Origin: Microthyrium microscopicum
Lineage: Eukaryota
Assembly (NCBI GenBank): GCA_010405405.1
Contig: MU004244.1
Coordinates: 623,895-687,894, forward strand
Direction of reading: 5' to 3'
Length of the DNA stretch: 64,000 bases
Below, piece after piece: positions 6,643-53,017 of the stretch (position 1 is its first letter; each line of letters starts with the position of its first letter). Under the pieces are notes generated by a model that saw nothing but the letters and a program-made list of their open reading frames with translations, was not told the DNA's origin and did not search any database. Made by a program: the position numbers and the translations under genes.

Positions 6643-8986
6643 CTAGTCAAGCTCAGTGCCAGGTTCATCCAGTCCAAGTCGAGCCTTCAAGTCGCGTTTG
6701 AGATCGTCAATACTCATCGTCATGAATTTTCGCTCTCGAATTGGATTGGCACCGATCTTGAAAACCCGTAGACCTTCCATAGTTCCAATGAGCGAATCGA
6801 GGCGTGAGAAGTCGTTGCCAGTGAAATCGACGGTACGTAGACCTGACAGAGAAGTGAAGCCTTCAGGGATGGTAGATATCTTGTTGTCCTCTGCGTAGAG
6901 AGTCATGAGTGATGTCCAATCTGACATAGGAGGTAGAGATGTGATTCGATTATAGTTGATGTTGAGCTCTTTCAGAGAGGGTAGAGTCAATGGTCCATAT
7001 GATAGTGCGATGAGTGAATTGACAGAAACGTCCAAAGATTGGAGACGAGGCATTGAAGTGTTTGCGTCGGTGAATAAGGTTCCGGATAGATGGTTCTTCA
7101 TTGCATTGAGAGATACGAGTGATGTTTTGGCGAGTGACTCCATAGGTAGAGAGTCAATCTGGTTATTGGAGATGTTTAGAATGCGGAGATGAATCAATTC
7201 TCCAATCTCGGCTGGAAGAGAGATGAGCTTGTTTCCTTGCACTTCTAGCACTTCGAGTTGTGTTAGATTTGAAATTGAAGAGCTCAGTTCACCTGCAGAG
7301 TGTTAGTCAAAGTCAAGATGATCTACAAGAACAGAACTCACCAGTCAATGCGTTGTCGGTGATCCGTAGCTCTTTGAGAGAAGAGATTTGTGCGATTGTC
7401 TCGAATGAATCATTCATCAATTGATTTCGTGACTAGTTCTATTAGCTTGAACTCCAGAAAACGTTTCTCGGGAGACTTACCAGATTCAAAGACGTGAGCT
7501 GTGTCAGACGTCTCAACCCTGGAGGAACGTCAAAGAGAAGATTCCCATGCAAATCCAAATGCTCAAGACCACCAAATTGAGGACCCAGAGAATCGTCATC
7601 ATCAGCTAGATTATTCATATCGATATCAGGGAAGACTTCGCCAGGAATAGACTCAAGCTCATTGTCAGCAGCGATGAATTTGGTAAGGTTCATGACCTCT
7701 CCCCAAGCAATCCCGCTCTGGTCCTTGTTGTATTCATAATCGTACATTTTGAGGACTTCTTCTGGAATTTCTTTCAGACTCATACCCGCAATGTTGAGGC
7801 GGCCTTCGGAGCGAGCAGTGTCCACCCGACGTCGCATGACCAATTTGCCTCCTTTGGGCTGAAGGTTGAATGGATCGTCGTTCAGATCAGCCTCGAATCC
7901 AGTTGAGTCTGGCACTATCGCGACGTCAGATCCTTCCGGACGCTCACTGAGGGACTTTTTCGCGGCCTTGGCAGCTCGAATCTGATCTCTCAGTGCCGAT
8001 GAGGATTTCGCAGCGTTAGCAGGAGGTTTCGGTTTTCCGTCTTTTGGTGTAGGGGCATCGTTCGGTCCATTAAAGACTCCAGCAAGAGCAGGGCGTGGTT
8101 TAGTAGGTCGAGCCGCAACAGTTTTGCTTCCACCCAATGGTCGTTTGGCCGCAGGTTTTGTAGTTGAAGTCGGCTTAGTACCTGCCAGAGACGGTCTAGC
8201 CTGAGCAGTACTCACGCTTCGCTTTCCCGCCGCATTCCCCGGTCCAACCGACTGTCGTGATCGCGAAGTTCCCGCCACGTTTTGAAGACGAGTTAGTGCT
8301 GGAGTTTTCGGAACTGGTGGCATGTCATCTTGATCCCCCCAGCTTCTAACACCAACTGCAGACGATGGCCGTGGGGCCATTGGACTATCTGGGTTGAAGA
8401 AGCTTGAACGTCGGCGCTTAGCCGGAGTGGGTGGGAGTTTTGATATTGATTCCACTGCTCGCTCGGCCAAAGAGAGACGAGTATTTACACCAATCTCCGG
8501 AGCCTCCGGCGATTCATGAGGTGCCTCGATTGGTGTATCATCGGATCGGAAGCCAGCGCGAGAGGAGGCTCGAGAAGCGGATCTGAAGCTATCAAGATCG
8601 CCAAGAGTATCGTCTCCTTCTGTTTTGATGGTAGATGATGTAGATATTATGCTGTTTCTAGCAACATTTCGAGTACGGGATGTAGAAGATTTAGTCTGGC
8701 TCGTCTGACTGGTCTGTGAGGTGGGACGGGGAAATCGAGGAACGGGGGGTTTGGCGGGACGCTTGAAAGTTGCAGGTTGTGAGGGTGTGGTTGAAATCCG
8801 ACGCGAATTCGATGCAGGTTGACGTGTCTTTATGGCATCAATCGATGGCTTTGGTCGCAAAGGGATTTGTTGTGTTGTTGCAGGTTTAGGGGCGGGTTTG
8901 GGAGCAGCCGCCTTTGGTATCGGGAGACGGGAAAGACGCGGAATTCCTGTTGGACGCGCAGTGGGAATGTTGGCCGAATCAGCCAT
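6643..8986 (-). CDS. Conserved fungal leucine-rich-repeat protein with a long disordered N-terminus (multi-exon)
   Basis: ORFs 7442-9010 and 6643-7251 joined through a small exon at ~7343-7435; many LxxLxLxxNxL repeats. Probable start MADSANIP at 8986. Confidence 0.85.
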
Positions 8987-9455: not shown

Positions 9456-10169
9456 TCAGTAATAGCCACAAGTAGTCCATGTCGCCCTCACTAGAGTTGG
9501 ACATATCATGTTGGCCGTACAGTTTGCATCTTCGTGTAAAATGTGGTTCAGAAGAACTTTCTCGCAGTGCATAGTATGTTTCCAATGTGATAAGTCGCTG
9601 TCGATTGGTAGATGATCGAGCAGTACTCCATGCATCTTTCGCCACATATATGTGCAATGAATCTGGTGGTAACTTCGTGGTGCAAATGCTTGTGGGTGAT
9701 CGCCCCGAAAGAGTTGCTCCATGGGAATTTTGTTCTGCAGTTTGGGATCAGAGTACCATGCCCAGTCATTTCGCTTCATGAAGTCGTCCAAAAGATCTTC
9801 ATGATAGCACTCTGGCCTAACCCAAATGTAGCTCATGGGGTCAAAAACGCAGCCATGTGCTCGGGCTTCTTCGATAGTTTTGTTGCTGCCACAAGTGCCG
9901 AGCTCGATTCCCGTGGGGAAGAGGTGAACATGCTTCTGCAACTTCCAGGTTTGAAAGGCCGTCCAGCATATCAAGGCGAAGGCAAAGACGGCCAGGCCAC
10001 AGAGTACAAATCTGTAGAGCCGATGAGAAGCTCTGGCAGTGCGGTTCTTGTGCCAACCCTCTGCGTCAGTGGAGGTAATCAAAGGCGCCGTGCTGGAGTC
10101 GAGATAAGTCGCTTTATCGAGTGTGATTGTTGAATCGGTGGACGTTCGGTAATCACTGGCAGTGGCCAT
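9456..10169 (-). CDS. HxxHC-HxxHC (DUF3328-related, PhomB-like subtype) RiPP tailoring protein Y1
   Basis: Intronless. N-terminal TM helix (FVLCGLAVFAFALICW), CG...EEARAHGCVFDPMSYIW, HQIHCTYMWRKMH and HTMHC motifs. Probable start MATASDY at 10169. Confidence 0.8.
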   Translation of the reverse strand: MATASDYRTSTDSTITLDKATYLDSSTAPLITSTDAEGWHKNRTARASHRLYRFVLCGLAVFAFALICWTAFQTWKLQKHVHLFPTGIELGTCGSNKTIEEARAHGCVFDPMSYIWVRPECYHEDLLDDFMKRNDWAWYSDPKLQNKIPMEQLFRGDHPQAFAPRSYHQIHCTYMWRKMHGVLLDHLPIDSDLSHWKHTMHCEKVLLNHILHEDANCTANMICPTLVRATWTTCGYY

Positions 10170-10777: not shown

Positions 10778-11861
10778 ATGGAGAAATTGTCATCTGCCTT
10801 ACCAAAGCGATTGTTCCATGGCGAATACCATAGACTACCTCTGCACGAAGAGCCGCGTACTTATACAGACAATTCTGTTCACAGGCTGGGTGGAAACGAT
10901 CGCAAAAACTGGCGGCAGGTTGCTGAACGAGTGCTTCCATGGCTACTTGTTTTAACATTCGCCTGCACAACGATTGCCCTTCTAGTTTCTAGCAGCTCCG
11001 AAGCTTCGGATAGCTGTAAAGAACGGAAAGGCTGGACAACAGACTTTAGTATGTTCTTAGATCTGCCGATCGAGGCTTTCCTCCTGACGCTGTAGTGCCT
11101 GCTACACCGGCGATTGAACATGAAATTGTCTACTTTAGTGGAAGTCCTGCGATTGCGGAGAATGGATCACTATTTATACCGAACCCAGATCCAGTGCGAT
11201 ATATTGGAGAACCCAATGCTGAAGTTGACAAGAACTGGGATGAGCTTACTTGGGGTGAATCTCTCTTCCTCGTTCCCTAATATTAACTAAAAGATCCTAG
11301 GCCGTTATTTCTTGATTACTGAGGATGAAGCGAAGTCAGCTTGGGGAGACGACGTAGGAGAGTTCTGGGATGAAAAACAAGGCGGATACGTGGCAGGGTA
11401 ATGTTCAATATTCCAGCCGTTGTGCCTCCATTTTAGCCACTGACTTCTCAAAGCATCGATATGTTTCATACGCTTCACTGTGTGGTAAGTAGAGCCCTGA
11501 AATCAACAACTCTTATTAATTGAAAGAGCAGGACCAGATAAGGAAACTTCTGCATGCGCCGCATTACAACATTACAATTTCCACGAATACTGCCCTCCAT
11601 CGTGATCATTGTTTGGAGCAAATTCGGCAGTATATTATGTGTGCTGGGGTAAGTCCTTGCGAAAAAAAGGAGTTTAGCATGTCACTAACATGCTTGTAGG
11701 ATTTGACGCCAATTCCGACAAAGTTTTATTCAGGACTGGGTCGGAACTACGTAGACTCGGACTACCCTCACACCTGTCGAAACTTCCAGAAGCTGCACGA
11801 CTGGGTCCTTGATAGATATGAGGGAGCATCCGCTGTACACAGTACAACCCAGGGACCGTAG
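10778..11861 (+). CDS. DUF3328/UstYa-family oxidase Y2 (6 exons)
   Basis: Spliced by eye: TM helix (VLPWLLVLTFACTTIALLV), GEPNAEVDKNWDEL, IDMFHTLHCV, HRDHCLEQIRQYIMCAG/DLTPIP, HTCRNFQKLHDW; stop TAG 11859-11861. Canonical UstYa signature with GT-AG introns. Confidence 0.92.
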
Positions 11862-12549
11862 AATCATACTGGTATCTTAATTAGTGACTCGAATACGCTG
11901 GTATATCGTCTATCTAGCTCTGTTAGGGTCTTAGAAGACTATATTGTCAATTTCAGTAGTCTAGTAAGCTTTGTGAGGCTTTAAGCGGCATACCTCAGGT
12001 CAATTTCTTCTTCAACCTCCTTGTGTGTGCTTGAGCTTGATTCTCATTGTATGAAATTGACTTGATTGGAAGAAGCTTGGAGCTATGTCGCCAGTTTCCT
12101 AAAGCAACCTATATCGTATTCAATTAAACCTTATTTTTATTACTCCAAGCAAAGGTGAACTGAATGTACTCGCCTCCTAGTGTGATAAAAATGTCTTTTC
12201 GTGAGACTAGAGCATCCTTTCTCGAGTCATATCACTAGAGAGTATCAACTACATAAAAACACATATACCTAGTCCTGGATGTGCTGGCTACCAGGTTGGC
12301 AATCCTAAATACCTACCCGGGCAGGTAGTCTCATACGCATTAGAGCATGCGGCACAGCTATGTGAGTCTCGGCGAGATGGAGCTTAGGCCAGAGGATATT
12401 GCTTAGCGGATGCACATTACATGTTTAGAGCTGCCTATTCTAGTTCGGGATGCATACTCAACACGAGTCCTACTGCTCCTGCACAACCAGTGCGGCGAAC
12501 TTGGAGAATTAGGCCCAATCTAGATACTATTGTTTGTAAGATTTGTTGG

Positions 12550-12557
12550 TATATATA
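12550..12557 (+). promoter_or_regulatory. Putative TATA element of the precursor gene
   Basis: TATATATA about 100 bp upstream of the ATG at 12658, followed by a CA-rich leader ending CAACATG. Confidence 0.4.
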
Positions 12558-12657
12558 TCAGCATATGGCTCAATGAATCAGTTGGCCATACACAAAACTA
12601 AAGCCATTCAAAATCTCATTACCAATAGTCCAACTAAACACCCAGTTCTTGATCAAC

Positions 12658-13051
12658 ATGAAGACTTTCGCCACTTTCACCGCTCTTATTCTCTCTGTTT
12701 CGGCACTGCCGCTCGCAGCTCCTAAGGTAAGAGTGCAAAACAATCAAGAGGTCTGCTAAATCATCTTTTTAGGTAGCAACCGGTTCTCAGCAGGAAGGTG
12801 TTGTCACCTGGGCAGATGTTTCTAAACGGTCTGAGGCTCAGGCCGAAGGTGTTGTCACATGGGCAGATGTCTCCAAGCGCGATGGGGCGCAGAAAGAGGG
12901 CGTTGTTACTTGGGCAGACGTTAGCAAACGAGATGGAGCTCAAAAGGAAGGTGTTGTTACTTGGGCTGATGTTTCCAAGCGCAACGAGGCTCAGAAAGAG
13001 GGTGTTGTAACTTGGGCAGACGTCAGCAAACGCAGTAGCGATGACTACTAA
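12658..13051 (+). CDS. Kex2-processed repeat protein / RiPP precursor peptide (115 aa, 2 exons)
   Basis: Exon 1 12658-12726 MKTFATFTALILSVSALPLAAPK (signal-peptide-like). Intron 12727-12772 (GTAAGA...GCTAAA...TTTAG). Exon 2 VATGSQQEGVVTWADVSKR-SEAQAEGVVTWADVSKR-DGAQKEGVVTWADVSKR-DGAQKEGVVTWADVSKR-NEAQKEGVVTWADVSKR-SSDDY*. Confidence 0.93.
12779..13033 (+). repeat. Coding tandem repeat, 5 x 51 bp
   Basis: Five 51-bp units, each ending in Lys-Arg codons; differences within EGVVTWADVSKR are all synonymous. Confidence 0.95.
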
Positions 13052-13954
13052 GTACGGTCAATTCTTTTGATATTGGCGCCTTTGGCCTTTCATTTCTATT
13101 ACATATCGCTTTGAGTTGGAAATGTCAATCCTACCAGTCTCAAGTCCAATGTTACAACTTTCTTTAATCTTATCGCTCGTATGACCATACTTTGTTCAAG
13201 TAAACTCTTGGGATATGATGCGGATTCTTCGTTTTGAGTAAAATTGCGTTACAACTTAATGGAAAGTGCGATGATCATTTGCTTCTATGCGAATACATTC
13301 TCAGCGCATAATGACAACGCTAATTTTACATTCTAGCGGATTGGACTCATCAGCTCAGCTGCAAAGAACAAGATGTTCGTTTAGCCTCTCCTTCGGAGGC
13401 GTAGGGTTTGATCTGGTCATTTCTCTCGAATCCTCAATATATTGACTAACTTCCCCTTGCTATAGTTACATTGTTTGAATCCTTCTAATCCTTCAGGTGG
13501 ATATGTAAATATCCCAACCACTTCACCTGCTTTTCCAGGTCCACTGGCAGGCAGAATGCAAGATCCATTCAAGGATTAACGGAGAATAACTAAGGTGTAT
13601 CCAGTTATGCTTGTCGACCTAAGGCTACTACATATTTCCCTGGATACGGTAACCAGTTATGGCATTGATTAACAAATTCATTGGACTAGAAAGCAAAATA
13701 TAACTATCTTGGGTACCAAGCAGAGTCTAGTAGCAGAATCCAATAACAAGAGAACGGAACTGTAACCAGGGTGTCGCTGATCGAGCAGATCAATTGATTG
13801 TGTATAACCCTGTCCGCCATATCGGGTTGCCTCTGGGCACGCACTTTATCGATGGATTCGCTTCTCTGTCACTGAGAGATGATGAGAAGCCTTTCACCCA
13901 TATCTACCTGTGACCGTGTATTCGAGCTTGTCAGTCTCCGATAAACGTCAAATC

Positions 13955-14969
13955 ATGGCTTCTGCGCAAACTCTCACTTACCTCGGCAATTGTCATTGCG
14001 GTGGCTATCGATTTGAAATCTCCCTGCCCAGAATCGAGAGTGCCATCTCCTGTTCATGCAGCGTTTGTTCGAAGAAGGATTCTCTGTGGGTGATCCCCGA
14101 GGAAAAAGCCTTTCGGGTGGTTCGGGATGACGGGCACTTGGTCGAATATGAGTCCAGATCATTAAAGGAAAAGGTAGCCAGACAATGTATTCTGAGACCC
14201 TGTACAGATAGTCATGCTAACAGTGAACCAGTTCTGTGGTTCTTGTGGCACGCAAGTGACTGCAGAGCATCAAATCGGAGATCTAGCGCGATGTTTTCTT
14301 GTTAACATCCGGACCATACGAAGTCCATACGTCAATCCGTTTCAGCTCAAGTACTTCACTCCTCTGATGAGTTTTCAAAGTCTTACTCTCAAAAGGAAAA
14401 CCATTATGACGGCCAGCGTTGTCGACAAGAATGAAGCAAAACAGATAGCAGTTGGCGCATCGCATGCTCTAACACAACATAATTTCGTCTGTCACTGCCA
14501 GCGGATTCGAGCAGAGTTGCTTGTCACTCTCCAAGACCAGGAGATCAAGGAAGATAATTGCAGTGCTTGCGTCAGGGTATGTCGGATTCCTCAACAGCAT
14601 ATTTGATTGTATAAAGATACTTAACGTTGACAGAATGCCTATATTGGTGTGTACCCTAAGAAAGAGCAAGTCATAATATATGGAAGAGAGAATGGCTTTG
14701 AGTATCTTACAGGTCGTAAATACAGTGGAGCAGTACATTGCAAAACATGTGGCGTCCAAGTCTTTAGCAACATCTATGGACCGCCGAGAAGCATGTTTGA
14801 TAAACTTGCCCCAGAGAGAAAGGAAAAGGCTCTGAAGGTATACCACAAGAATATGCAGCTTCAGCCCCTGAATGTTCGAGCAGTAGAGGGAGTTGATATA
14901 TCTTCACTTCATATCATACGATCAGACGAAGGAACAGAGGGCTACAAGCTTGATGAGGAGAAACATTAG
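13955..14969 (+). CDS. Tandem GFA/CENP-V (Mss4-like, Zn-binding) domain protein (4 exons)
   Basis: Domain 1 GNCHCG...CSCSVCSKK...FCGSCG; domain 2 VCHCQ...DNCSACVR/NAYIGVYP...HCKTCGVQVF...LNVRAVEGVD. Three short GT-AG introns. Confidence 0.85.
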
Positions 14970-15046: not shown

Positions 15047-15785
15047 TTATCTGCGAATTGAAGCTTTATGCTTCTTGGCCCATTCAAGAATCTGACTCCA
15101 GTCTCGACATTTGCGGTGTTCTACATTCCAACCATTTATCGCTCGGTGCACGCCTTTGAATGCGTCCTGCGCCGGCTCAATGGTAACATCTCCTGCGCAC
15201 ATCAATGACTGTCTAACGTAATCAAAACAATGGTCAATATGTTTGTGAAGATACGCTTCTGAGGAGTTGTAGTCTAGCTGTAACAATTGGTCCCTCGTTG
15301 TAGATTGCAGTTCTCCCGTGAGAAGATTATAATAATTGTTTCTGATCATCTCCAAACAGTGCAATTGGTGAAAAACAGAGACACCGTAGTGGTCGGCGCC
15401 ATAAGGTTGCTGTATTCCAGGCGCAAGGCGAAGCTGTCGTTGGTGCCGTTTGTTGATCTCAAGGAAACCGCCCCCAGCTGTAAAGAGGGATCGTCAGTTA
15501 TATCACGATGGCATTTAGTGTTCTTTACCTGGGCGCATACTGCTCCAAGCCTCAGAAGACTTGTTGCCGGAAAATATGGAGAAATTGTCATTTGGCTGAA
15601 AGACTTTGCGAACAACTCGTACTAGCATAAACTTAGTATAGTTCTGATTACTTTCACGGTTATGTCTCACCATCTATACAAAAGTCGTTGAAGAAATAGA
15701 TTGACTTAATCGTTGTTATACATAAACTGACAGCCAGGAAAACTGACAGTGCTTGGAGACCTATCCGAACCAGTGATGAAACCAT
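15047..15785 (-). CDS. DUF3328/UstYa-family oxidase Y3 (3 exons)
   Basis: MVSSLVRIGLQALSVFLAVSLCIT (TM), introns 15622-15670 and 15478-15528, AWSSMRPAGGGF, VSVFHQLHCLEMIR, HIDHCFDYVRQSLMCAGDVTIEP, GWNVEHRKCRDW. Confidence 0.92.
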
Positions 15786-16568: not shown

Positions 16569-17222
16569 ATGCCTGCACATATCCTAACACCACCGACGAA
16601 AGAGCTAGTTTTGAAATTGTCAACGAAACATAGACGACGCAGTGTGCTGGGCATCCTACTTTTTGGAGTGGCTTTCGCGTTAGCCATTGTCATAGTGTAC
16701 TTTGACCTGCTTGAACAGACCAAGTTCATGAAGGTACCATATGAAGCGCCGTGTGGCGATACATCCTCTGAGGCTCAACGCAAAGGGTGTCATTTTGACA
16801 CAATGGCGTTCAGTTGGGTCCCTCCAGCTTGCTATGACGGCGAGCTAGAAAAGGAATTTCTAAGCAAGAAGGACTGGGTGTGGTTCCTGGAGGAGAATAA
16901 CAATATTACAATTTCCCCTGAGGTCGTCCAAACAGGGGATATAAACGTTGCATGGGTGACTTGGGAATATCACCAAACTCACTGCACATATATGTGGCGA
17001 AAAATGCACCGAGCAGTCGCTGCATCAACACCTCTGGATGGATACATCCGCGACTATCATCATACTGCGCACTGCGAGGTGATGTTGCTGCAGGATGTCA
17101 CAGATAATCGGAAGCAACGAGAGTCAATTTATATCAAATACCCAAACTGTGGTGGGCCAGACGTTGGACACCTTGGATGGTTTAGAGTCATCAATGGCAA
17201 GCGCTATCATCGAGATCCCTAA
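16569..17222 (+). CDS. HxxHC-HxxHC (DUF3328-related, PhomB-like subtype) RiPP tailoring protein Y4
   Basis: Intronless paralogue of Y1: TM helix (VLGILLFGVAFALAIVIVYF), CGDTSSEAQRKGCHFDTMAFSW, HQTHCTYMWRKMH, HTAHC. Probable start MPAHIL at 16569. Confidence 0.8.
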   Translation: MPAHILTPPTKELVLKLSTKHRRRSVLGILLFGVAFALAIVIVYFDLLEQTKFMKVPYEAPCGDTSSEAQRKGCHFDTMAFSWVPPACYDGELEKEFLSKKDWVWFLEENNNITISPEVVQTGDINVAWVTWEYHQTHCTYMWRKMHRAVAASTPLDGYIRDYHHTAHCEVMLLQDVTDNRKQRESIYIKYPNCGGPDVGHLGWFRVINGKRYHRDP

Positions 17223-17351
17223 GCTACTGCTCGAAGGGTTAGACACACCTGATACTAGATACTATCGTATGCTGGCTCTGGAGTGTCGCCTCAGTTCGCG
17301 CTATACCCATCATTGAAAGAACACGATTTTAGGTCTGGATAGGTAAACATA

Positions 17352-17990
17352 CCGTAGCGTGGAGGGGGGAGTAAAGGACTTGATATTTTAATGAAACTAC
17401 ATGATCTTTTGAAGTCTTTTTAGAAGTCTATTCTTCTCTAGAAGATGATGTCTTGAGTAAACCTTATGTTCTGTGAATAAAAGTAATTACGACTAAAGAT
17501 AAAGAAGGCACGATAGGATGTTAGTAAGAATGAAAGGATAAAGTATAGGAGCTAAATAGATTAGGGGCTATATATATAAGCTTAGTAATTTATACTCTAT
17601 TATTATAAAACCCCTAGTAAAATATAGTCATAATTCTGCCTTGCTTAACTAAGCTATAGCGTATTAATCTAGCCTAATTTATAATTTAAATTATAATTTA
17701 TTTAAAAAAAGTATTTATTGCTAGTTGTCTTGCTCTCTTAATCCTTTATTGAATTTAATAGTAATTTTTTTTGCCCCTCTTTATAGCTATAATATAGCTA
17801 AAAAATAGCTAAAACATAGTTTTTTTAGAAAATGCTTTTGTAAATAGAAAATATAGGTTTTCTAAAATAGGTATCTTCTCTTAGAAAGTAGCATCGATTG
17901 TACCTCTCTGCAGAATATACATTTTCTTGTCTAGAAGCTTCATAGGATGATCACTGGTAAATTTCCTCTACCCCCCCTCGCGCGCTACGG
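17352..17990. mobile_element. Decayed non-autonomous DNA transposon (Tc1/mariner-type MITE), RIP-like
   Basis: Imperfect TIRs: CCGTAGCGTGGAGGGGGGAGTAAAGGA on the left versus reverse complement CCGTAGCGCGCGAGGGGGGGTAGAGGA on the right. TA on both flanks (17350-51, 17991-92). Interior is very AT/TpA-rich with no ORF. Confidence 0.8.
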
Positions 17991-19379
17991 TAGAGAGCTT
18001 GCGAGAATATACTTTCATCAACCACGACCTGAAATGGTAACACGAGTCTCAAGACTAGAAGTTTATGATTGAATAATGTTTTTGTCACGATGTTTTTTCA
18101 GCAAGGTACTGCAGTTGAGGCAATCGGTCAACACTTACGCGATGTGTGAGGAGCTTGCTCATTTTTCTACCCGAGAAGTAGGGCGTAGCAAACCCCGACA
18201 ATTGTCACGATTATTGGGCCAAAAACAGAAGAAATGGTTACTGAATTATTACAACATTAATTGAGAACTTTAGGAGCCTTTCAGTATCGAGTGTCATGGT
18301 ACGGTAGACATCAGGGTGGAGGGGAGGAAGTCGCAGAGCTTGCTGATTTTGCCGGGAGAGGTCGCGCCTCTTGTTCTTTCCATGTTGAATCTAGCGTGGC
18401 TTCCACGTCGCGAACTCGCGGCAAATATTAACGTGGGTAACGCGCCGCGTGGTTTCTTTCCCGGCAAGTCAAGCTGGCAACCGTGATGGGTACTGACAGG
18501 TACTTCTTCTCCCTTGCAAGGAGATATCTTATCGCGCTAGGTTATTGTGCCGAGACTTGAAGCACAATAGTATATACGATATGTCAATAAAAATAAATGG
18601 TACATACAGATTTAACGCAGTACGGATGACAGTCAGTAGATATTTAGCGACCGATTCGACTAGGCGCGGTTACCATGGTTGCAAGGAGTAGCAGCCGCTA
18701 TTGGCTACAGGACAGGCTTGTCCAACCACCGTGATTCCCTGACTTTAGCCTTGCAAGGCTTTGCTCAGAAAAAGACTCCACCATCTGAAGCTTTGATTAT
18801 TCTCTTGTGTGTCAAAACAGCTGCAACTCTTTTAGCCTTGACTCTTCCCCGCCTCCATCATTCTCTCATCCTCCATTTCCAAGAGTCCCACTCTCTACCT
18901 GCATTATCGTCAACTTCTTCACCTGCCCTGACCATAAACGCCCTGTTACACTGGCTAAAGTCTCTCCCCGCCACCTTGCATTCTTTCAGTCTACTCAAGG
19001 CCTGATTCAGTCGTGGCTACAGCACGCGTTGAAACATCGAGATACTTCCGAAACGCGCCATGCTGATCCGCGCTTGAGAGTACATCCGCATCGCGAACTC
19101 TCTTTTCTACTATTTTGCTTATTACTCGTACTACCCGACTCCACCCTGTCTGTCAAGCCTGTCTATACAACCCACTCTGCTATTCTCATTTGTACTCTGG
19201 CCTATTTCTCCGCCCGGCCTCTCAATACCTACTTATTCTAGCCCTTGCGCAATCTTCTCCCTTCTATCTCAAGCTCGCCTATATATTCCACATCTGCCTG
19301 CTTTGCGCATATAAACAAAACACTCAACAGAGTCACTACTTCCAATCGAGTCTACCGGCTACTTGCATTGGCCGCAATC

Positions 19380-50953: not shown

Positions 50954-52643
50954 CTACTTCTTCTCTGTCCACTCTCCAGACAACCATCTGTTGAGCATGC
51001 TCAAGCTGGCCTTTGGCTGGTCATATGGGACCATGTGGCCAGCAGCGTGAATTTGGATAAAGGTGAAGTTGCCAGAGGTCTTGACGGCGCCGACCTTGTC
51101 GCCGTCAACCTTGAGGTCTTTCATTGAGGCGCTTTGGTAGTTGGCTTGACCTGGCCATTCAAGTGCTTCGGTCCAGCCCTTGTTTCCGAGCCAGTTGCAG
51201 ATGAAATCAGCATCACCCTGTTGTATGTTAGTGTATGTTCTAGCGGGATGGAGAAAAATTGAAACTTACAGCATAGACGAGGACTGGGATCTCCTTGAGA
51301 AGATCTGGGACCATGCGATGGAATGGCTTCATCCAATCTCCTTGGAATAAAAAGTTCCGGTTGATATCCATGTTGCAGCTGTCGTAGTTTGATACTTCAG
51401 CACCAAGGGCCTTCTTGACATTGTCCTGGTTGAGATAGCTTGCGATCCGGTCTAGCTCTTCGTAGCAGAGGTTGCTTCCCTCACAATCCTTGCGGACGTC
51501 GTATGGGTTGCGGCCAGTACGTTGGTAGGCACCAATCATGGCATTGTTGCAGTAGATTGAGGCGGGTACGCAAGACCATACACTCTCAGATGCGTAGCAG
51601 CTCTCAATGAGTGATTGGCAGCGAGGCAAAGCGTTGTCCATGGATTGACACTCGGTCTCGTCCAAAACAGCGGGCCAACCACCATCACCACAGGCCATTG
51701 GTCGGTAGTACTCGTATTGAGTGAGGCCGTCAGTCAAACCGTTACCGATGGCGACGGACTGGAGATTGATGTTGCGCTTCTTGTGAGACAAGATCTCGTG
51801 GGCAAAGACTGGAATGTAATGACCGGCATATGATTCGCCGGTGATGTGGAAGGTTTGGTTGGCATATTCGGGGAATTGCTTGAAGAAGAGAGTGAGAAGA
51901 GCATAAACGTCTTGTCCGGCAGCGACTGTGTTGCTGACTGGGCTGTCGCTATAAGAATAGCCAACGTTTACCGGCTGATCCAAGAAGATGACGGAAGCAT
52001 TGGCGTTCCATGAATACTCATTGTATTTGACCTTGATGTTCTTATCGATTGACGAAGGGCCGAGTTCCATGAAGAGGCCGGTGAGCGAAGAGCAGCCTGG
52101 ACCACCGTTGAGCCAAAGAACGACGGGATCATTCTTGGGGTCATTTCGGGATTCGAAGAACCAGTAAAACAGATGCTTATCGCTCTCATCATCGTCGAGA
52201 TAACCAGAGTATTGTTTAACCTTGTCAACACCGAGCGACTTGGGGTCGACCTTTTTGGTTCGGAGTGAGTATGGGCTTAAATGTCCGTCAATTGCCCGTT
52301 CCTTCTCTCCCTTGTCGTTTGTGATCCAGACGCTCTGGATATCTTCACCCTTGGTATTAAAGTCCCACTCGCTGGCAGGCTTTCGGTCGTGCTTCTTTGG
52401 GAGAGAAAAGAAGTTGGCAGCTTCGAATGCTGCAGGATATATAGCTGCGACCTCATCCCAGGTTTTCTGGGCCTCTGCAGACATGCCTTTAAGAGCATGT
52501 TGAAGGTCGTGAAGGGGCTTTTGGAACATGCCCGAGTTTGAGATCTTGTTCTTGAAGTTGTCGAATGAGCCCAATGGCTGCTGCATAGGGGCTACAGCGG
52601 CCGAGGCAGCTCCCACGATGGGGAGTACTGAGGTGATTCTCAT
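50954..52643 (-). CDS. PRC1: Carboxypeptidase Y (serine carboxypeptidase S10), 2 exons
   Basis: [37 protein letters not shown]; signal peptide and propeptide. Confidence 0.95.
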
Positions 52644-53017
52644 GATGAAGACCGATGACGCTGGGAGCTAGGCAGCTATGAGAGCGGCGCTTAAGCTTCG
52701 CGGCGGGGTTCCGGGTAGGTATTATAGAAATAGACTAGAGAAAGGAGATTGTATGGGTGAAATGTAAAGATATGTGACAAAACAAAAGGATGGCAGAAGT
52801 CACAAAGAGTTGAAGAGTGTATAAGATGAAGATGAATGGAGCGAGGAGGAGGTGTTTCGATGATAACAGGCGGTGGTCAAGTGGTGGGCGGAGCTTCCCT
52901 GCCACGCAAACGCAAGGCGTGGCGAATGGAGCAGGAGCCTGGAAACCTTGGCACTGTTACAGCATCAAGGTGGTCAACTCCCATCGGCATGTCTAAGCTT
53001 GACTGGATATTTGATGG

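What the first reader, a model, noticed from the sequence alone, without database searches (positions are those of the whole stretch)
12658..13051. Hidden precursor with a Trp-containing, Tyr-free core (E-GVVTW-ADVS-KR) x5
Seen: the gene is invisible to the ORF track because a 46-nt intron separates the signal peptide from the repeats. Kex2 cleavage would release 15-mers such as DGAQKEGVVTWADVS. The spacer (SEAQA/DGAQK/NEAQK) varies while EGVVTWADVSKR is invariant. By analogy to UstA/PhomA, where an acidic residue precedes the core and a short follower plus dibasic site trails it, the core is probably GVVTW or a slightly longer or shorter version (inference). Classical dikaritins cyclise through a Tyr aryl ether. 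Trp is the only aromatic residue in these repeats, implying indole C-C, C-N or C-O crosslinks to Val/Thr/Gly, or other new chemistry.
Basis: partly seen in the sequence, partly recalled or inferred. Interest (0 to 1): 0.9.

Follow-up and report, generated by a model that had tools for sequence, protein, structure and literature searches.

The report
Hidden tryptophan-core fungal peptide precursor
A small, unannotated but transcribed and correctly spliced fungal gene encodes five identical tryptophan-containing peptide units and sits between copper-oxidase (UstYa) genes, so it is a credible new member of the ustiloxin-like ribosomal peptide class, though its product is still unknown.

Summary
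ATG 12658, a 23-residue signal-peptide exon, a 46-nt GT..AG intron (12727-12772) and an exon with five EGVVTWADVSKR units are all present. A contig of public run X1 joins 12724 to 12771, skipping exactly those 46 nt. Three more joints with canonical ends lie in the two flanking UstYa genes. In the 12-residue unit, 10 of 12 codons vary between copies and none changes a residue. The gene is missing from the protein collection that holds its neighbours. Relatives in Copromyces, Beauveria, Chlorociboria and unnamed assemblies share G-[VI]-[VI]-T-[W/Y/F]-x-D, with Thr and Asp invariant in 25 of 25 units. The core therefore probably runs past GVVTW to the Asp, and Trp occupies a position that is Tyr or Phe elsewhere. 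Best reading: a dikaritin-class precursor, probably cross-linked between the aromatic residue and an upstream Val. The chemistry is inferred. Trp-containing repeat precursors beside DUF3328 genes are already counted by the hundreds in print. Verdict: new member of a known kind, interest moderate.

The parts
12549..13115 (+). Transcribed span of the precursor gene seen in run X1 (5' UTR of at least 109 nt, 3' UTR of at least 64 nt)
   Evidence: record 3: 521-nt contig covering 12549-12724 and 12771-13115 with 0 mismatches.
12658..12726 (+). Exon 1: start codon and 23-residue signal-peptide-like N-terminus
   Evidence: Mean Kyte-Doolittle hydropathy of residues 3-20 is 1.74. Homologs share MK plus a hydrophobic stretch plus A-P. 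SignalP was not available.
12727..12772 (+). 46-nt intron (GTAAGA...TAG)
   Evidence: Sequence. A contig of run X1 skips exactly 46 nt with GT..AG ends (table 5).
12773..13051 (+). Exon 2: five 17-residue units (variable 5-residue spacer plus invariant EGVVTWADVSKR), then the tail SSDDY and the stop codon
12794..12829 (+). Core unit 1 (EGVVTWADVSKR)
12845..12880 (+). Core unit 2
12896..12931 (+). Core unit 3
12947..12982 (+). Core unit 4
12998..13033 (+). Core unit 5
10778..11861 (+). Gene B: six-exon UstYa/DUF3328 gene, 278 aa, HTLHC at 181 and HRDHC at 209. My exon model: 10778-11048, 11096-11254, 11301-11397, 11454-11484, 11532-11648, 11700-11861
   Evidence: Three exons each match Pfam PF11807 at sub-threshold scores that are collinear along the profile (17.1, 24.0 and 18.0 bits). 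The model gives an open frame. A contig of run X1 skips intron 11649-11699. The other four introns are inferred from GT..AG ends and the reading frame only.
15047..15785 (-). Gene C: three-exon UstYa/DUF3328 gene, 212 aa, HQLHC at 106 and HIDHC at 149
   Evidence: Pfam PF11807, E 5.9e-27, 95.4 bits. Contigs of run X1 skip both introns, 15478-15528 and 15622-15670, with CT..AC ends. The model matches the 212-aa public protein P0079, which a source names as Microthyrium microscopicum.
9456..10169 (-). Gene A: 237-aa single-exon membrane protein with HQIHC at 168 and HTMHC at 198. It belongs to a double-HxxHC family that Pfam UstYa does not capture. It is transcribed divergently from gene B
   Evidence: No Pfam hit even at E up to 10. 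The ESM Atlas holds it; nearest clusters are unnamed Ascomycota proteins, and a UstYa cluster appears at rank 18 with score 0.86.
16569..17222 (+). Gene E: 217-aa paralog of gene A (32% identity, E 4e-29) with HQTHC at 135 and HTAHC at 165. It is transcribed divergently from gene C
   Evidence: public protein P0047, 100% identical. Pfam UstYa only at E 0.075-0.13. AlphaFold2 model with pLDDT 89.1.
13956..14969 (+). Tandem GFA/CENP-V-like zinc-protein gene between the precursor and gene C. Whether it belongs to the cluster is unknown
   Evidence: Exon 1 matches Pfam GFA at E 1.7e-4 to 1.8e-3, below the curated cut-off. CxC...CxxC patterns occur twice. The exon model is inferred.

Best explanation
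This is the precursor gene of a compact UstYa/DUF3328-type (dikaritin-class) fungal RiPP cluster spanning about 9.4-17.3 kb.

Proposed pathway:
1. The 115-residue pre-pro-peptide enters the secretory pathway through its N-terminal signal peptide.
2. In the ER/Golgi lumen, membrane-anchored binuclear-copper oxidases modify the conserved block G-V-V-T-W-A-D. These are the UstYa genes B and C, and possibly the UstYa-like genes A and E.
3. Kex2 cuts after each of the five KR pairs.
4. Carboxy- and aminopeptidases trim the KR and the variable spacer.
5. One locus therefore yields five copies of one small modified peptide for secretion.

The modification I think most likely is an oxidative side-chain macrocycle between the aromatic residue (here the Trp indole) and the beta-carbon of an upstream beta-branched residue (Val at -3 or -2). 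This follows the aromatic-aliphatic links of asperipin, epichloecyclins and victorin, and the Trp links made by plant copper BURP cyclases.

What is shown: gene structure, splicing, transcription of the precursor and of both UstYa genes, selection on the peptide sequence, the cluster context, and family conservation.

What is inferred: secretion, Kex2 cleavage, which enzyme acts, and all of the chemistry.

My odds: about 0.7 that it is a UstYa-modified, Kex2-processed RiPP precursor, and about 0.4 that the modification is a macrocycle through the Trp side chain. The confidence given for this explanation (0.65) refers to the class-level statement.
For: 1. The gene is real and is spliced as predicted. 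A contig of run X1 bridges 12724 to 12771 (46 nt skipped, GT..AG ends, 0 mismatches over 521 nt). Three further joints have canonical ends on the correct strand in genes B and C.
2. Selection acts on the peptide. In the 12-residue unit, 10 of 12 codons vary among the five copies with 0 residue changes. In the spacer, 4 of 5 codons change the residue.
3. Architecture. It has a signal-peptide-like N-terminus, five tandem units and five KR sites. It is the only such repeat ORF in the 64-kb window.
4. Context. Gene C is Pfam UstYa at E 5.9e-27. Gene B exons are collinear with the UstYa profile. All four flanking proteins A, B, C and E carry two HxxHC motifs about 30-43 residues apart. Gene B ends 797 nt upstream of the start codon and gene C ends 1996 nt downstream of the stop.
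5. A conserved family. Only the 5 short signal-peptide proteins among the 42 fetched carry [VIL][VIL]TW[AS]D[VIL]. They include Copromyces sp. and Beauveria bassiana. Two further relatives have Tyr (Chlorociboria aeruginascens) or Phe at the Trp position. Thr(-1) and Asp(+2) are invariant in 25 of 25 distinct units.
6. The A/E family travels with this kind of cluster.
   - Of 23 metagenome loci with an A/E homolog, 5 hold a Pfam-supported UstYa gene (at least 25 bits) within the fetched flank, and a sixth holds one at 20.3 bits.
   - Two of these loci also hold KR-delimited repeat precursors (L021, L023).
   - One A/E homolog (P0052) and one precursor homolog (P0001) are both recorded on an ENA contig of 18,205 nt.
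7. Enzymology from print.
   - DUF3328 proteins are membrane-anchored, lumen-facing, binuclear-copper enzymes. Their HxxHC(x)nHxxHC motif resembles the planar His arrangement of BURP cyclases (PMC12435403, first third of the text read).
   - DUF3328 enzymes are listed among the makers of aromatic-aliphatic peptide cross-links (PMC12797325 and PMC12186524, passages).
   - DUF3328 genes peak at the position next to repeat-precursor genes (PMC7329392, section 7).
Against: - No product is known and nothing here shows any modification.
- Run X1 is labelled RNA only as a guess. Its cDNA nature is my inference from four canonical joints.
- Umemura 2020 found W no more frequent in repeat precursors with DUF3328 neighbours (20.5%) than in those without (24.5%), whereas Y is enriched (65.6% versus 38.2%). 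Trp by itself therefore does not point to DUF3328 chemistry.
- The aromatic position tolerates W, Y and F, while Thr and Asp are the invariant residues. This fits equally well a modification centred on Thr, Val or Asp, or on the benzylic carbon.
- I could not fetch the genomic neighbourhoods of the named homologs. Conserved linkage of this precursor family to UstYa genes therefore rests on one contig-length coincidence.
- A metagenome scan with the precursor alignment found no relative.
- A and E are not demonstrably UstYa. Pfam gives 5 of 32 family members at E up to 1, best 0.0016. hhalign gives probability 1.3% against gene C alone and 33.6% against five UstYa sequences.
- No tyrosinase, methyltransferase, transporter or peptidase gene lies in the cluster.
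Confidence: 0.65

Rival explanations
1. The peptide is modified by the DUF3328 enzymes, but not through the Trp side chain. Instead the enzymes hydroxylate, desaturate or halogenate C(sp3)-H bonds of Val or Thr, or form a link through the benzylic carbon or the invariant Thr or Asp. The aromatic residue would serve only as a recognition or anchor position.
For: - DUF3328 enzymes hydroxylate, halogenate, isomerise and macrocyclise (PMC12435403; PMC12048977 passages).
- Thr(-1) and Asp(+2) are invariant in 25 of 25 units, while the aromatic residue varies W/Y/F.
- Phe has no heteroatom to form an ether or a C-N link.
- Four HxxHC proteins would allow several tailoring steps.
Against: Every characterised repeat-precursor product of DUF3328 enzymes described in the review passages I read has an aromatic-to-aliphatic side-chain macrocycle. 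This includes the Phe-Leu link of victorin, so Phe does not exclude one (PMC9233826). The aromatic position is never a non-aromatic residue in the 25 units.
Confidence: 0.25
2. It is an ordinary Kex2-processed repeat protein that releases unmodified linear secreted peptides, hormone- or pheromone-like. Its position next to UstYa genes would be incidental, or those genes would act on another substrate.
For: - Most repeat precursors are not next to DUF3328 genes: 78% of 7878 (PMC7329392, abstract and section 7).
- W content is not enriched beside DUF3328 genes.
- No modification is shown here.
- The third-nearest ESM Atlas cluster is yeast alpha-factor, at a weak score of 0.77.
Against: - The gene is bracketed by two Pfam UstYa genes and two double-HxxHC genes within 3.5 kb on either side. 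No other candidate substrate gene lies in the window.
- Almost all pheromone-type repeat precursors lack DUF3328 neighbours, with three exceptions (abstract of PMC7329392).
- Contigs of the same run cover the precursor, gene B and gene C.
Confidence: 0.15
3. It is not a peptide precursor at all. It would be a small secreted repeat protein with a structural or cell-wall role, or a non-functional repeat.
For: Repeat proteins with a similar 17-residue period and a similar ...VVTWAE... or ...SWAELE... motif exist without KR sites or signal peptides (P0006, P0007, P0011, P0017). Motif similarity alone is therefore not diagnostic.
Against: - A KR pair follows every unit, and relatives keep K(+5) in 21 of 25 units and R(+6) in 18 of 25.
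- Strict purifying selection acts on a 12-residue unit with free spacers.
- The gene is transcribed and spliced.
- The look-alikes lack all the precursor hallmarks.
Confidence: 0.04

Closest known systems
Ustiloxin and phomopsin clusters (UstA/PhomA precursors with UstYa-family oxidases)
   Same: - Signal peptide plus tandem core units that each end in a dibasic Kex2 site.
- Two or more DUF3328/UstYa genes with double HxxHC motifs beside the precursor (the general description is in PMC9233826 and PMC7329392).
   Different: - In those products an N-terminal Tyr is linked to an internal Ile. Here there is no Tyr in the unit, and the aromatic residue lies C-terminal to the aliphatic residues.
- No tyrosinase, methyltransferase, P450/FMO, peptidase or transporter gene was found in the cluster.
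Asperipin-2a, epichloecyclins and victorin (other DUF3328-dependent repeat-precursor peptides)
   Same: - These are small clusters in which the aromatic residue is internal or C-terminal and is linked to an upstream residue.
- Victorin is cyclised between a C-terminal Phe side chain and an internal Leu, and comes from a Dothideomycete.
- In epichloecyclins the Ile is N-terminal and the Tyr internal (PMC9233826 passages).
- The order V-V-T-aromatic seen here matches that polarity.
   Different: - The aromatic residue here is Trp.
- The core motif G-[VI]-[VI]-T-[WYF]-x-D is unrelated to those cores.
- Two members of an additional double-HxxHC family (A and E) are present.
Plant burpitides (BURP-domain copper cyclases; lyciumin-type Trp-indole-N to carbon links)
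   Same: This is a works-like analogy only. In burpitides a copper enzyme with four planar His residues cross-links a Trp or Tyr side chain to a carbon of an upstream residue in a repeated core (PMC12186524 passages; PMC12435403).
   Different: The enzyme family is unrelated and the products come from plants. Burpitide precursors are often fused to the cyclase. No BURP domain appeared in any Pfam scan of the window.
Kex2-processed repeat proteins (KEPs) surveyed by Umemura 2020 and Le Marquer 2019
   Same: It meets the operational definition of signal peptide plus KR-delimited repeats. It belongs to the 22% of such proteins with DUF3328 neighbours and the 20.5% of those that contain W.
   Different: - This motif family was not found in the main text of any paper in the library.
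- It was not found in the held supplementary text of three surveys. Long files may have been cut when stored.
- The window's gene is absent from the protein collection searched.
CctR and other DUF3328 enzymes of cyclochlorotine biosynthesis
   Same: They provide the enzymology template: an N-terminal transmembrane helix, a lumenal helical domain, an HxxHC(x)nHxxHC binuclear copper site, and dependence on O2 and electrons (PMC12435403). The A/E model places its two HxxHC motifs on two adjacent helices (132-151 and 163-174) after a long N-terminal helix.
   Different: Those enzymes act on a non-ribosomal peptide. A and E do not reach the Pfam UstYa cut-off.

Membership tests
Dikaritin-class fungal RiPP cluster (DUF3328/UstYa plus Kex2-processed repeat precursor) | Precursor with an N-terminal signal peptide | tested here: met
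   By inspection only: MK followed by 18 mostly hydrophobic residues, mean hydropathy 1.74, then A-A-P. Homologs show the same layout. SignalP was not available.
Dikaritin-class fungal RiPP cluster (DUF3328/UstYa plus Kex2-processed repeat precursor) | Tandemly repeated core and recognition units, each ending in a dibasic Kex2 site | tested here: met
   Five identical 12-residue units each end in KR. The period is 51 nt.
Dikaritin-class fungal RiPP cluster (DUF3328/UstYa plus Kex2-processed repeat precursor) | DUF3328/UstYa protein(s) with two HXXHC motifs in the cluster. Passages of PMC12048977 quote this as the class-defining enzyme | tested here: met
   Gene C matches PF11807 at 95.4 bits. 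Gene B exons are collinear with PF11807. Both proteins carry two HxxHC motifs.
Dikaritin-class fungal RiPP cluster (DUF3328/UstYa plus Kex2-processed repeat precursor) | Tyrosinase, methyltransferase and transporter or peptidase genes in the cluster. This is the older five-gene definition quoted in PMC12048977 | tested here: not met
   None appeared in the Pfam scans of the window's ORFs. These covered 15 ORFs and 31 of the 80 ORFs of at least 110 aa; the rest were overlapping shadow frames that I did not submit. The only peptidase is a carboxypeptidase Y-type S10 gene at 51243-52667, about 38 kb away. Later definitions drop this feature.
Dikaritin-class fungal RiPP cluster (DUF3328/UstYa plus Kex2-processed repeat precursor) | Product carries an oxidative side-chain macrocycle between an aromatic and an aliphatic residue | not testable with these tools
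   This needs MS/NMR of the product.
Classical Tyr-ether dikaritins (ustiloxin, phomopsin, asperipin) | Tyr in the core unit as the cross-linking residue | tested here: not met
   No Tyr occurs in any unit. The only Tyr is the C-terminal residue of the protein. A relative from Chlorociboria has Tyr at the Trp position.
Pfam PF11807 UstYa (for genes A and E) | Score at or above the curated cut-off of 25 bits | tested here: not met
   Gene A has no hit at E up to 10. Gene E scores 12.6-13.3 bits. Of 32 family members, 5 hit at E up to 1, best 0.0016. hhalign gives 33.6% probability over 50 columns spanning both HxxHC motifs.
DUF3328 superfamily architecture as described for CctR (for genes A and E) | Single N-terminal transmembrane helix plus a C-terminal domain with HxxHC(x)nHxxHC on paired helices | tested here: met
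   In the 32-sequence alignment, H138, C139, H165, H168 and C169 are invariant and H135 is nearly so. The AlphaFold2 model (pLDDT 89.1) has a long helix at 11-53 and helices at 132-151 and 163-174 that carry the motifs. Copper binding was not tested.
Fungal alpha-factor-type pheromone precursors | Kex2 repeats without DUF3328 neighbours; X-Ala/X-Pro dipeptide spacers (the spacer feature is recalled, not from any call) | tested here: not met
   DUF3328 genes are immediate neighbours. The spacers SEAQA, DGAQK and NEAQK do not parse into X-Ala dipeptides. The ESM Atlas similarity to the MF_alpha cluster is only 0.77.

The most novel reading that the evidence does not exclude
Fungal double-HxxHC copper enzymes forge a Trp-indole to Val beta-carbon (C-C or C-N) macrocycle in a G-V-V-T-W-A-D core. 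This would be a fungal counterpart of the plant burpitide Trp cross-links and the first Tyr-independent, Trp-based chemistry for the UstYa class.

The W/Y/F variation among orthologous precursors would give a natural series of cross-link types.
Probability: 0.3. Interest if true: 0.7.

Novelty: new member of a known kind. Interest (0 to 1): 0.45.

Why it matters
The finding adds a verified, expressed and previously unannotated precursor to the small set of fungal DUF3328-type RiPP clusters. It also gives that precursor a conserved family reaching at least three further ascomycete genera: Copromyces and Beauveria (Sordariomycetes) and Chlorociboria (Leotiomycetes); those class names are recalled, not from a call.

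Two features make the system easy to work with. The cluster is small: one precursor, four HxxHC proteins and one GFA-like gene. The orthologs carry a natural W/Y/F swap at one position.

Two open questions about these copper enzymes could be asked here. What decides which side chains are joined? Can the enzymes use an indole?

Tried and rejected
**Run search.** No RNA holder was listed by the run search. The one holder, X1, is 'RNA?' by guess.

**Uncovered parts.** Run X1 gave no cover over gene A, gene E or the GFA-like gene. That says nothing about their expression.

**Whole genome.** No whole genome is held for this window.

**Metagenome scan with the precursor alignment.** 125 pattern matches were found, but 0 were confirmed by tblastn.

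**Exhaustive phmmer search.**
- 40 proteins scored E up to 0.001. Of the 42 proteins fetched together, only the 5 short signal-peptide proteins carry the Trp motif.
- P0009 and P0019 are the Tyr and Phe variants.
- Of the remaining hits, the ones I inspected (P0006, P0007, P0011, P0013, P0017, P0042) are repeat proteins without precursor hallmarks. I set them, and the rest uninspected, aside as look-alikes.

**Synteny by the third protein search.** It returned only 4 UstYa hits, none on a contig that also carries a precursor homolog.

**Are A and E UstYa homologs?**
- hhalign against gene C alone gave 1.3% probability.
- hhalign against five UstYa sequences gave 33.6%.
- The UstYa model needed for a fold comparison came out poor: pLDDT 46.4 from 4 sequences. 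No comparison was possible.
- Foldseek on the A/E model found 0 PDB matches at E up to 0.001.
- VIA-align matched only the N-terminal helix, Z up to 5.2. This is inconclusive.
- No solved structure relative was found by sequence for gene C or for the A/E profile.

**Other searches.**
- ESM Atlas on the precursor gave best scores of 0.81, 0.78 and 0.77, which are leads only.
- Rfam on 17200-19300 found nothing.
- Earlier findings of this scan held nothing relevant.

**Literature.**
- Motif strings were found in no relevant paper. One search returned two unrelated hits for a 5-letter substring.
- The motif was not in the held supplements of PMC6339444, PMC7329392 or PMC7099791.
- PMC12143957 (copper-dependent DUF3328 macrocyclase) is not held. 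I saw only its reference entry.
- The asperigimycin paper is not in the library. I recall it as describing a fungal RiPP with a Trp-derived benzofuranoindoline made with DUF3328 enzymes. I could not check this. If my recollection is right, it lowers the novelty of Trp chemistry in this class.

**Not run.** I did not run complex prediction. I make no binding claim that would justify it.
Full report
**Observation**

- An ATG at 12658 opens a 69-nt exon that encodes MKTFATFTALILSVSALPLAAPK.
- A 46-nt interval, 12727-12772, begins GTAAGA and ends TAG.
- From 12773 a 92-codon frame without any Met runs to a TAA at 13049-13051.
- Joining the two exons in a script gives an open 115-codon frame. The unspliced reading stops ten codons into the intron.
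- Tandem Repeats Finder reports a 51-nt period with 4.6 copies.
- The five units share an identical 12-residue block, EGVVTWADVSKR, behind variable 5-residue spacers.
- The protein has five Trp, one per unit. Its single Tyr is the last residue and its two Phe lie in the signal peptide.

**Is it more than chance, and is it a gene?**

Two independent lines say yes.
- Selection. Among the five copies, 12 of 36 core nucleotide sites and 10 of 12 core codons differ, yet no residue changes. One difference is a TCN/AGC serine switch. In the spacer, 4 of 5 codons change the residue. A rough estimate that treats sites as independent gives P about 9e-8. The 12-residue peptide sequence is therefore what is conserved.
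- Transcription. The one public run that holds this stretch is X1, kept as Logan contigs and labelled 'RNA?' by guess. It contains a 521-nt contig that lies on 12549-12724 and 12771-13115 with no mismatch and skips 46 nt with GT..AG ends. With the stated 2-nt ambiguity this is the predicted 12726/12773 junction.
- The same run skips 51 nt with GT..AG ends in the plus-strand neighbour (intron 11649-11699). It skips 51 and 49 nt with CT..AC ends in the minus-strand neighbour (15478-15528 and 15622-15670).
- Four canonical junctions on the correct strands in three genes are what cDNA gives. I therefore treat the run as RNA-derived, but this is my inference.

**Hidden from annotation**

A word-indexed search of 5.8 billion predicted proteins with exon 2 found no identical entry. 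Its neighbours are present:
- Gene E is P0047 at 100% identity.
- Gene C is P0079, 212 aa, which the source names as a hypothetical protein of Microthyrium microscopicum.
- Gene A is held letter for letter in the ESM Atlas.

The neighbours are therefore annotated and the precursor is not.

**Surroundings**

The precursor lies in a compact block at 9.4-17.3 kb.
- Gene C (15785..15047, minus strand, three exons) matches Pfam UstYa at E 5.9e-27. My model has 212 residues, the same length as the public protein.
- Gene B (10778-11861, plus strand) is split into six exons. Three of them hit successive parts of the UstYa profile at sub-threshold scores. The joined model is open and has 278 residues. 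Only its last intron is confirmed by a contig.
- Genes A (10169..9456, minus strand) and E (16569-17222, plus strand) are single-exon paralogs, 32% identical, E 4e-29.
- All four proteins carry two HxxHC motifs.
- A is transcribed divergently from B, and E divergently from C. The block therefore reads A<- ->B ->precursor ->GFA-like <-C ->E.
- A tandem GFA/CENP-V-like zinc-protein gene (about 13956-14969) lies between the precursor and C. Its Pfam match is below the cut-off.
- The window holds no other KR-delimited repeat ORF and no other HxxHC protein of this kind.
- The rest of the window is housekeeping: homoserine dehydrogenase, Utp21, a PPIP5K-type kinase, SBDS, carboxypeptidase Y at 51 kb, lysophospholipase and others. 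I found no tyrosinase, methyltransferase, P450 or transporter in the ORFs I scanned. These were 15 ORFs and 31 of the 80 ORFs of at least 110 aa. The ones I left out were overlapping shadow frames.

**The A/E family**

- Thirty-one relatives at E down to 1e-152 come from many ascomycetes, including Aureobasidium, Cladophialophora, Rhinocladiella, Rhypophila, Cladobotryum, Metarhizium and Toensbergia. None has a precomputed Pfam domain.
- The 32-sequence alignment has invariant C62, C88, H138, C139, H165, H168 and C169, with H135 nearly invariant.
- Pfam UstYa is reached by 5 of 32 members at E up to 1, best 0.0016.
- hhalign against five UstYa sequences gives 33.6% probability over 50 columns that span both motifs. 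Against gene C alone it gives 1.3%.
- An AlphaFold2 model is confident: pLDDT 89.1, pTM 0.76. It has a long N-terminal helix and two adjacent helices that bear the HxxHC motifs. This is the architecture described for the copper enzyme CctR (PMC12435403, first third of the text).
- Foldseek found no PDB match. VIA-align matched only the N-terminal helix.
- Of 23 metagenome loci with an A/E homolog, 5 contain a UstYa ORF at 25 bits or more: L008, L017, L021, L022 and L023. L001 contains one at 20.3 bits. In all, 11 of the 16 ORFs scanned hit UstYa at E up to 0.01.
- Two of these loci also contain KR-delimited repeat precursors of other sequence: L021 at 17566-18168 and L023 at 7277-7594.

I therefore read A/E as a UstYa-like tailoring family that current Pfam-based mining would miss. 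Homology to UstYa is not demonstrated.

**The precursor family**

- The word-indexed search and an exhaustive phmmer search of 1.84 billion representatives (40 hits at E up to 0.001) together fetched 42 proteins. Only the 5 short ones with signal peptides carry [VIL][VIL]TW[AS]D[VIL].
- These are Copromyces sp. CBS 386.78 (two units), Beauveria bassiana (three units) and three unnamed ENA proteins.
- Two further hits are clear variants. A Chlorociboria aeruginascens protein has about eleven units with I-I-T-Y-(E/A)-D. An unnamed protein has V-(V/L)-T-F-P-D.
- I aligned 25 distinct units from 8 proteins on the aromatic residue:

| Position | Residues |
|---|---|
| -4 | G in 21 of 25 |
| -3, -2 | V or I, apart from one L at -2 |
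| -1 | T in 25 of 25 |
| 0 | W 18, Y 5, F 2 |
| +2 | D in 25 of 25 |
| +5, +6 | K in 21, R in 18 |

- Trp here occupies a generic aromatic position.
- One A/E homolog (P0052) and one precursor homolog (P0001) are both recorded on an ENA contig of 18,205 nt. This suggests conserved linkage but does not prove it. I could not fetch any fungal neighbourhood.

**Mechanism**

From print:
- Dikaritin precursors are targeted to the Golgi and cut by Kex2. DUF3328 enzymes cross-link an aromatic side chain to an aliphatic one. The known links are Tyr to Ile in ustiloxins and phomopsins, two internal Tyr links in asperipin, C-terminal Phe to internal Leu in victorin, and N-terminal Ile to internal Tyr in epichloecyclins (PMC9233826, passages).
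- DUF3328 enzymes are lumen-facing, membrane-anchored binuclear copper enzymes. Their His arrangement resembles that of plant BURP cyclases (PMC12435403).
- BURP cyclases make Trp-indole-N to carbon links, among others (PMC12186524, passage).

The order aliphatic-aliphatic-Thr-aromatic fits the victorin, epichloecyclin and asperipin polarity. I therefore favour a link from the indole to the beta-carbon of Val(-3) or Val(-2), followed by Kex2 cleavage and trimming.

The invariance of Thr and Asp and the tolerance of Phe leave real room for other modifications. These include hydroxylation, desaturation or halogenation of Val or Thr, or a link through the benzylic carbon.

My odds:
- about 0.7 for a UstYa-modified Kex2-processed precursor
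- about 0.4 for a Trp-side-chain macrocycle
- 0.25 for modification elsewhere
- 0.15 for an unmodified linear peptide

**Comparison and novelty**

- The locus meets the current class definition of a dikaritin-type cluster: a signal peptide, KR-delimited repeats, and DUF3328 genes with two HXXHC motifs (passages of PMC12048977).
- It fails the older five-gene definition, because no tyrosinase or methyltransferase is present.
- It lacks the Tyr of the classical members.
- Tyr-free cores are already known (victorin).
- Umemura's survey counted W in 20.5% of 1758 repeat precursors with DUF3328 neighbours, no more than in those without (24.5%). It named one abundant W-containing type (PMC7329392, section 7).
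- The specific motif appears in no relevant main text of the library. It also does not appear in the held supplement text of three surveys. Those files may be truncated and other supplements could not be seen.
- I recall, but could not check, a 2025 report of asperigimycins: fungal RiPPs with a Trp-derived benzofuranoindoline made with DUF3328 enzymes. If my recollection is right, it removes any claim that Trp chemistry in this class is unprecedented.

**Verdict**

This is a real, expressed, unannotated gene and a good genome-mining lead with a conserved family. It is a new member of a known kind, not a new kind. Interest 0.45.

Noticed in passing
window 9456-10169 (-) and 16569-17222 (+); loci L001-L023: Genes A and E belong to a widespread ascomycete family of about 220-aa membrane proteins. 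The family has an invariant double HxxHC, conserved Cys residues and the motif YMWRKMH. It has no Pfam assignment. Its AlphaFold2 model is confident (pLDDT 89.1) and has no PDB match. In this window each paralog is paired divergently with a UstYa gene. Elsewhere the family lies near UstYa genes and repeat precursors. It may be a second DUF3328-like tailoring class, or a partner subunit.
   Followed up: partly
window 13956-14969 (+): A gene with two tandem GFA/CENP-V-like zinc-binding domains sits between the precursor and UstYa gene C. The Pfam GFA match is below the cut-off. No role for such a protein in RiPP clusters is known to me.
   Followed up: partly
L021:17566-18168 (+) and L023:7277-7594 (-): Two metagenome contigs with A/E and UstYa genes carry other KR-delimited repeat precursors. 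One has 15 units containing DPIFARVDKR. The other has three units containing PIGSFISIWYGEDGDD, which holds both Trp and Tyr.
   Followed up: no
proteins P0006, P0007, P0011, P0017 (one search hits): These are long repeat proteins with a period of about 17 residues and units such as RR-A-V-V-T-W-A-E-L/F-E or RRGxxSWAELE. They have weak Pfam DUF5894 matches, no signal peptide and no KR. They outscore the true relatives in phmmer. The resemblance to VVTWAD and the shared period are unexplained and probably coincidental.
   Followed up: partly
protein P0042 / P0044 (JGI metagenome contigs of about 1.2 kb): A 302-aa protein with a signal-peptide-like N-terminus carries about twelve KR-delimited units MGPQ(D/S)WA(D/N)F-x-KR. 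These share W-A-D-hydrophobic-x-K-R with the window's unit. Its origin and any relationship are unknown.
   Followed up: no
window 17375-17477 and 17833-17992: High-depth contigs of run X1 (depths of about 60-140, one contig 5590 nt long) match these AT-rich intergenic stretches with about 8-10% mismatches. They run on into unlike sequence. This looks like a dispersed repeat, or a related element expressed from elsewhere. There is no Rfam match in 17200-19300.
   Followed up: partly
window 11523-11531 and 11875-12139: The run X1 contig that is spliced across intron 5 of gene B starts 9 nt upstream of my predicted exon-5 acceptor. This suggests retention of intron 4 in that molecule, or a wrong acceptor in my model. 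A separate contig covers 11875-12139, just past the gene B stop codon. It is probably the 3' UTR, since no convincing ORF lies there.
   Followed up: partly
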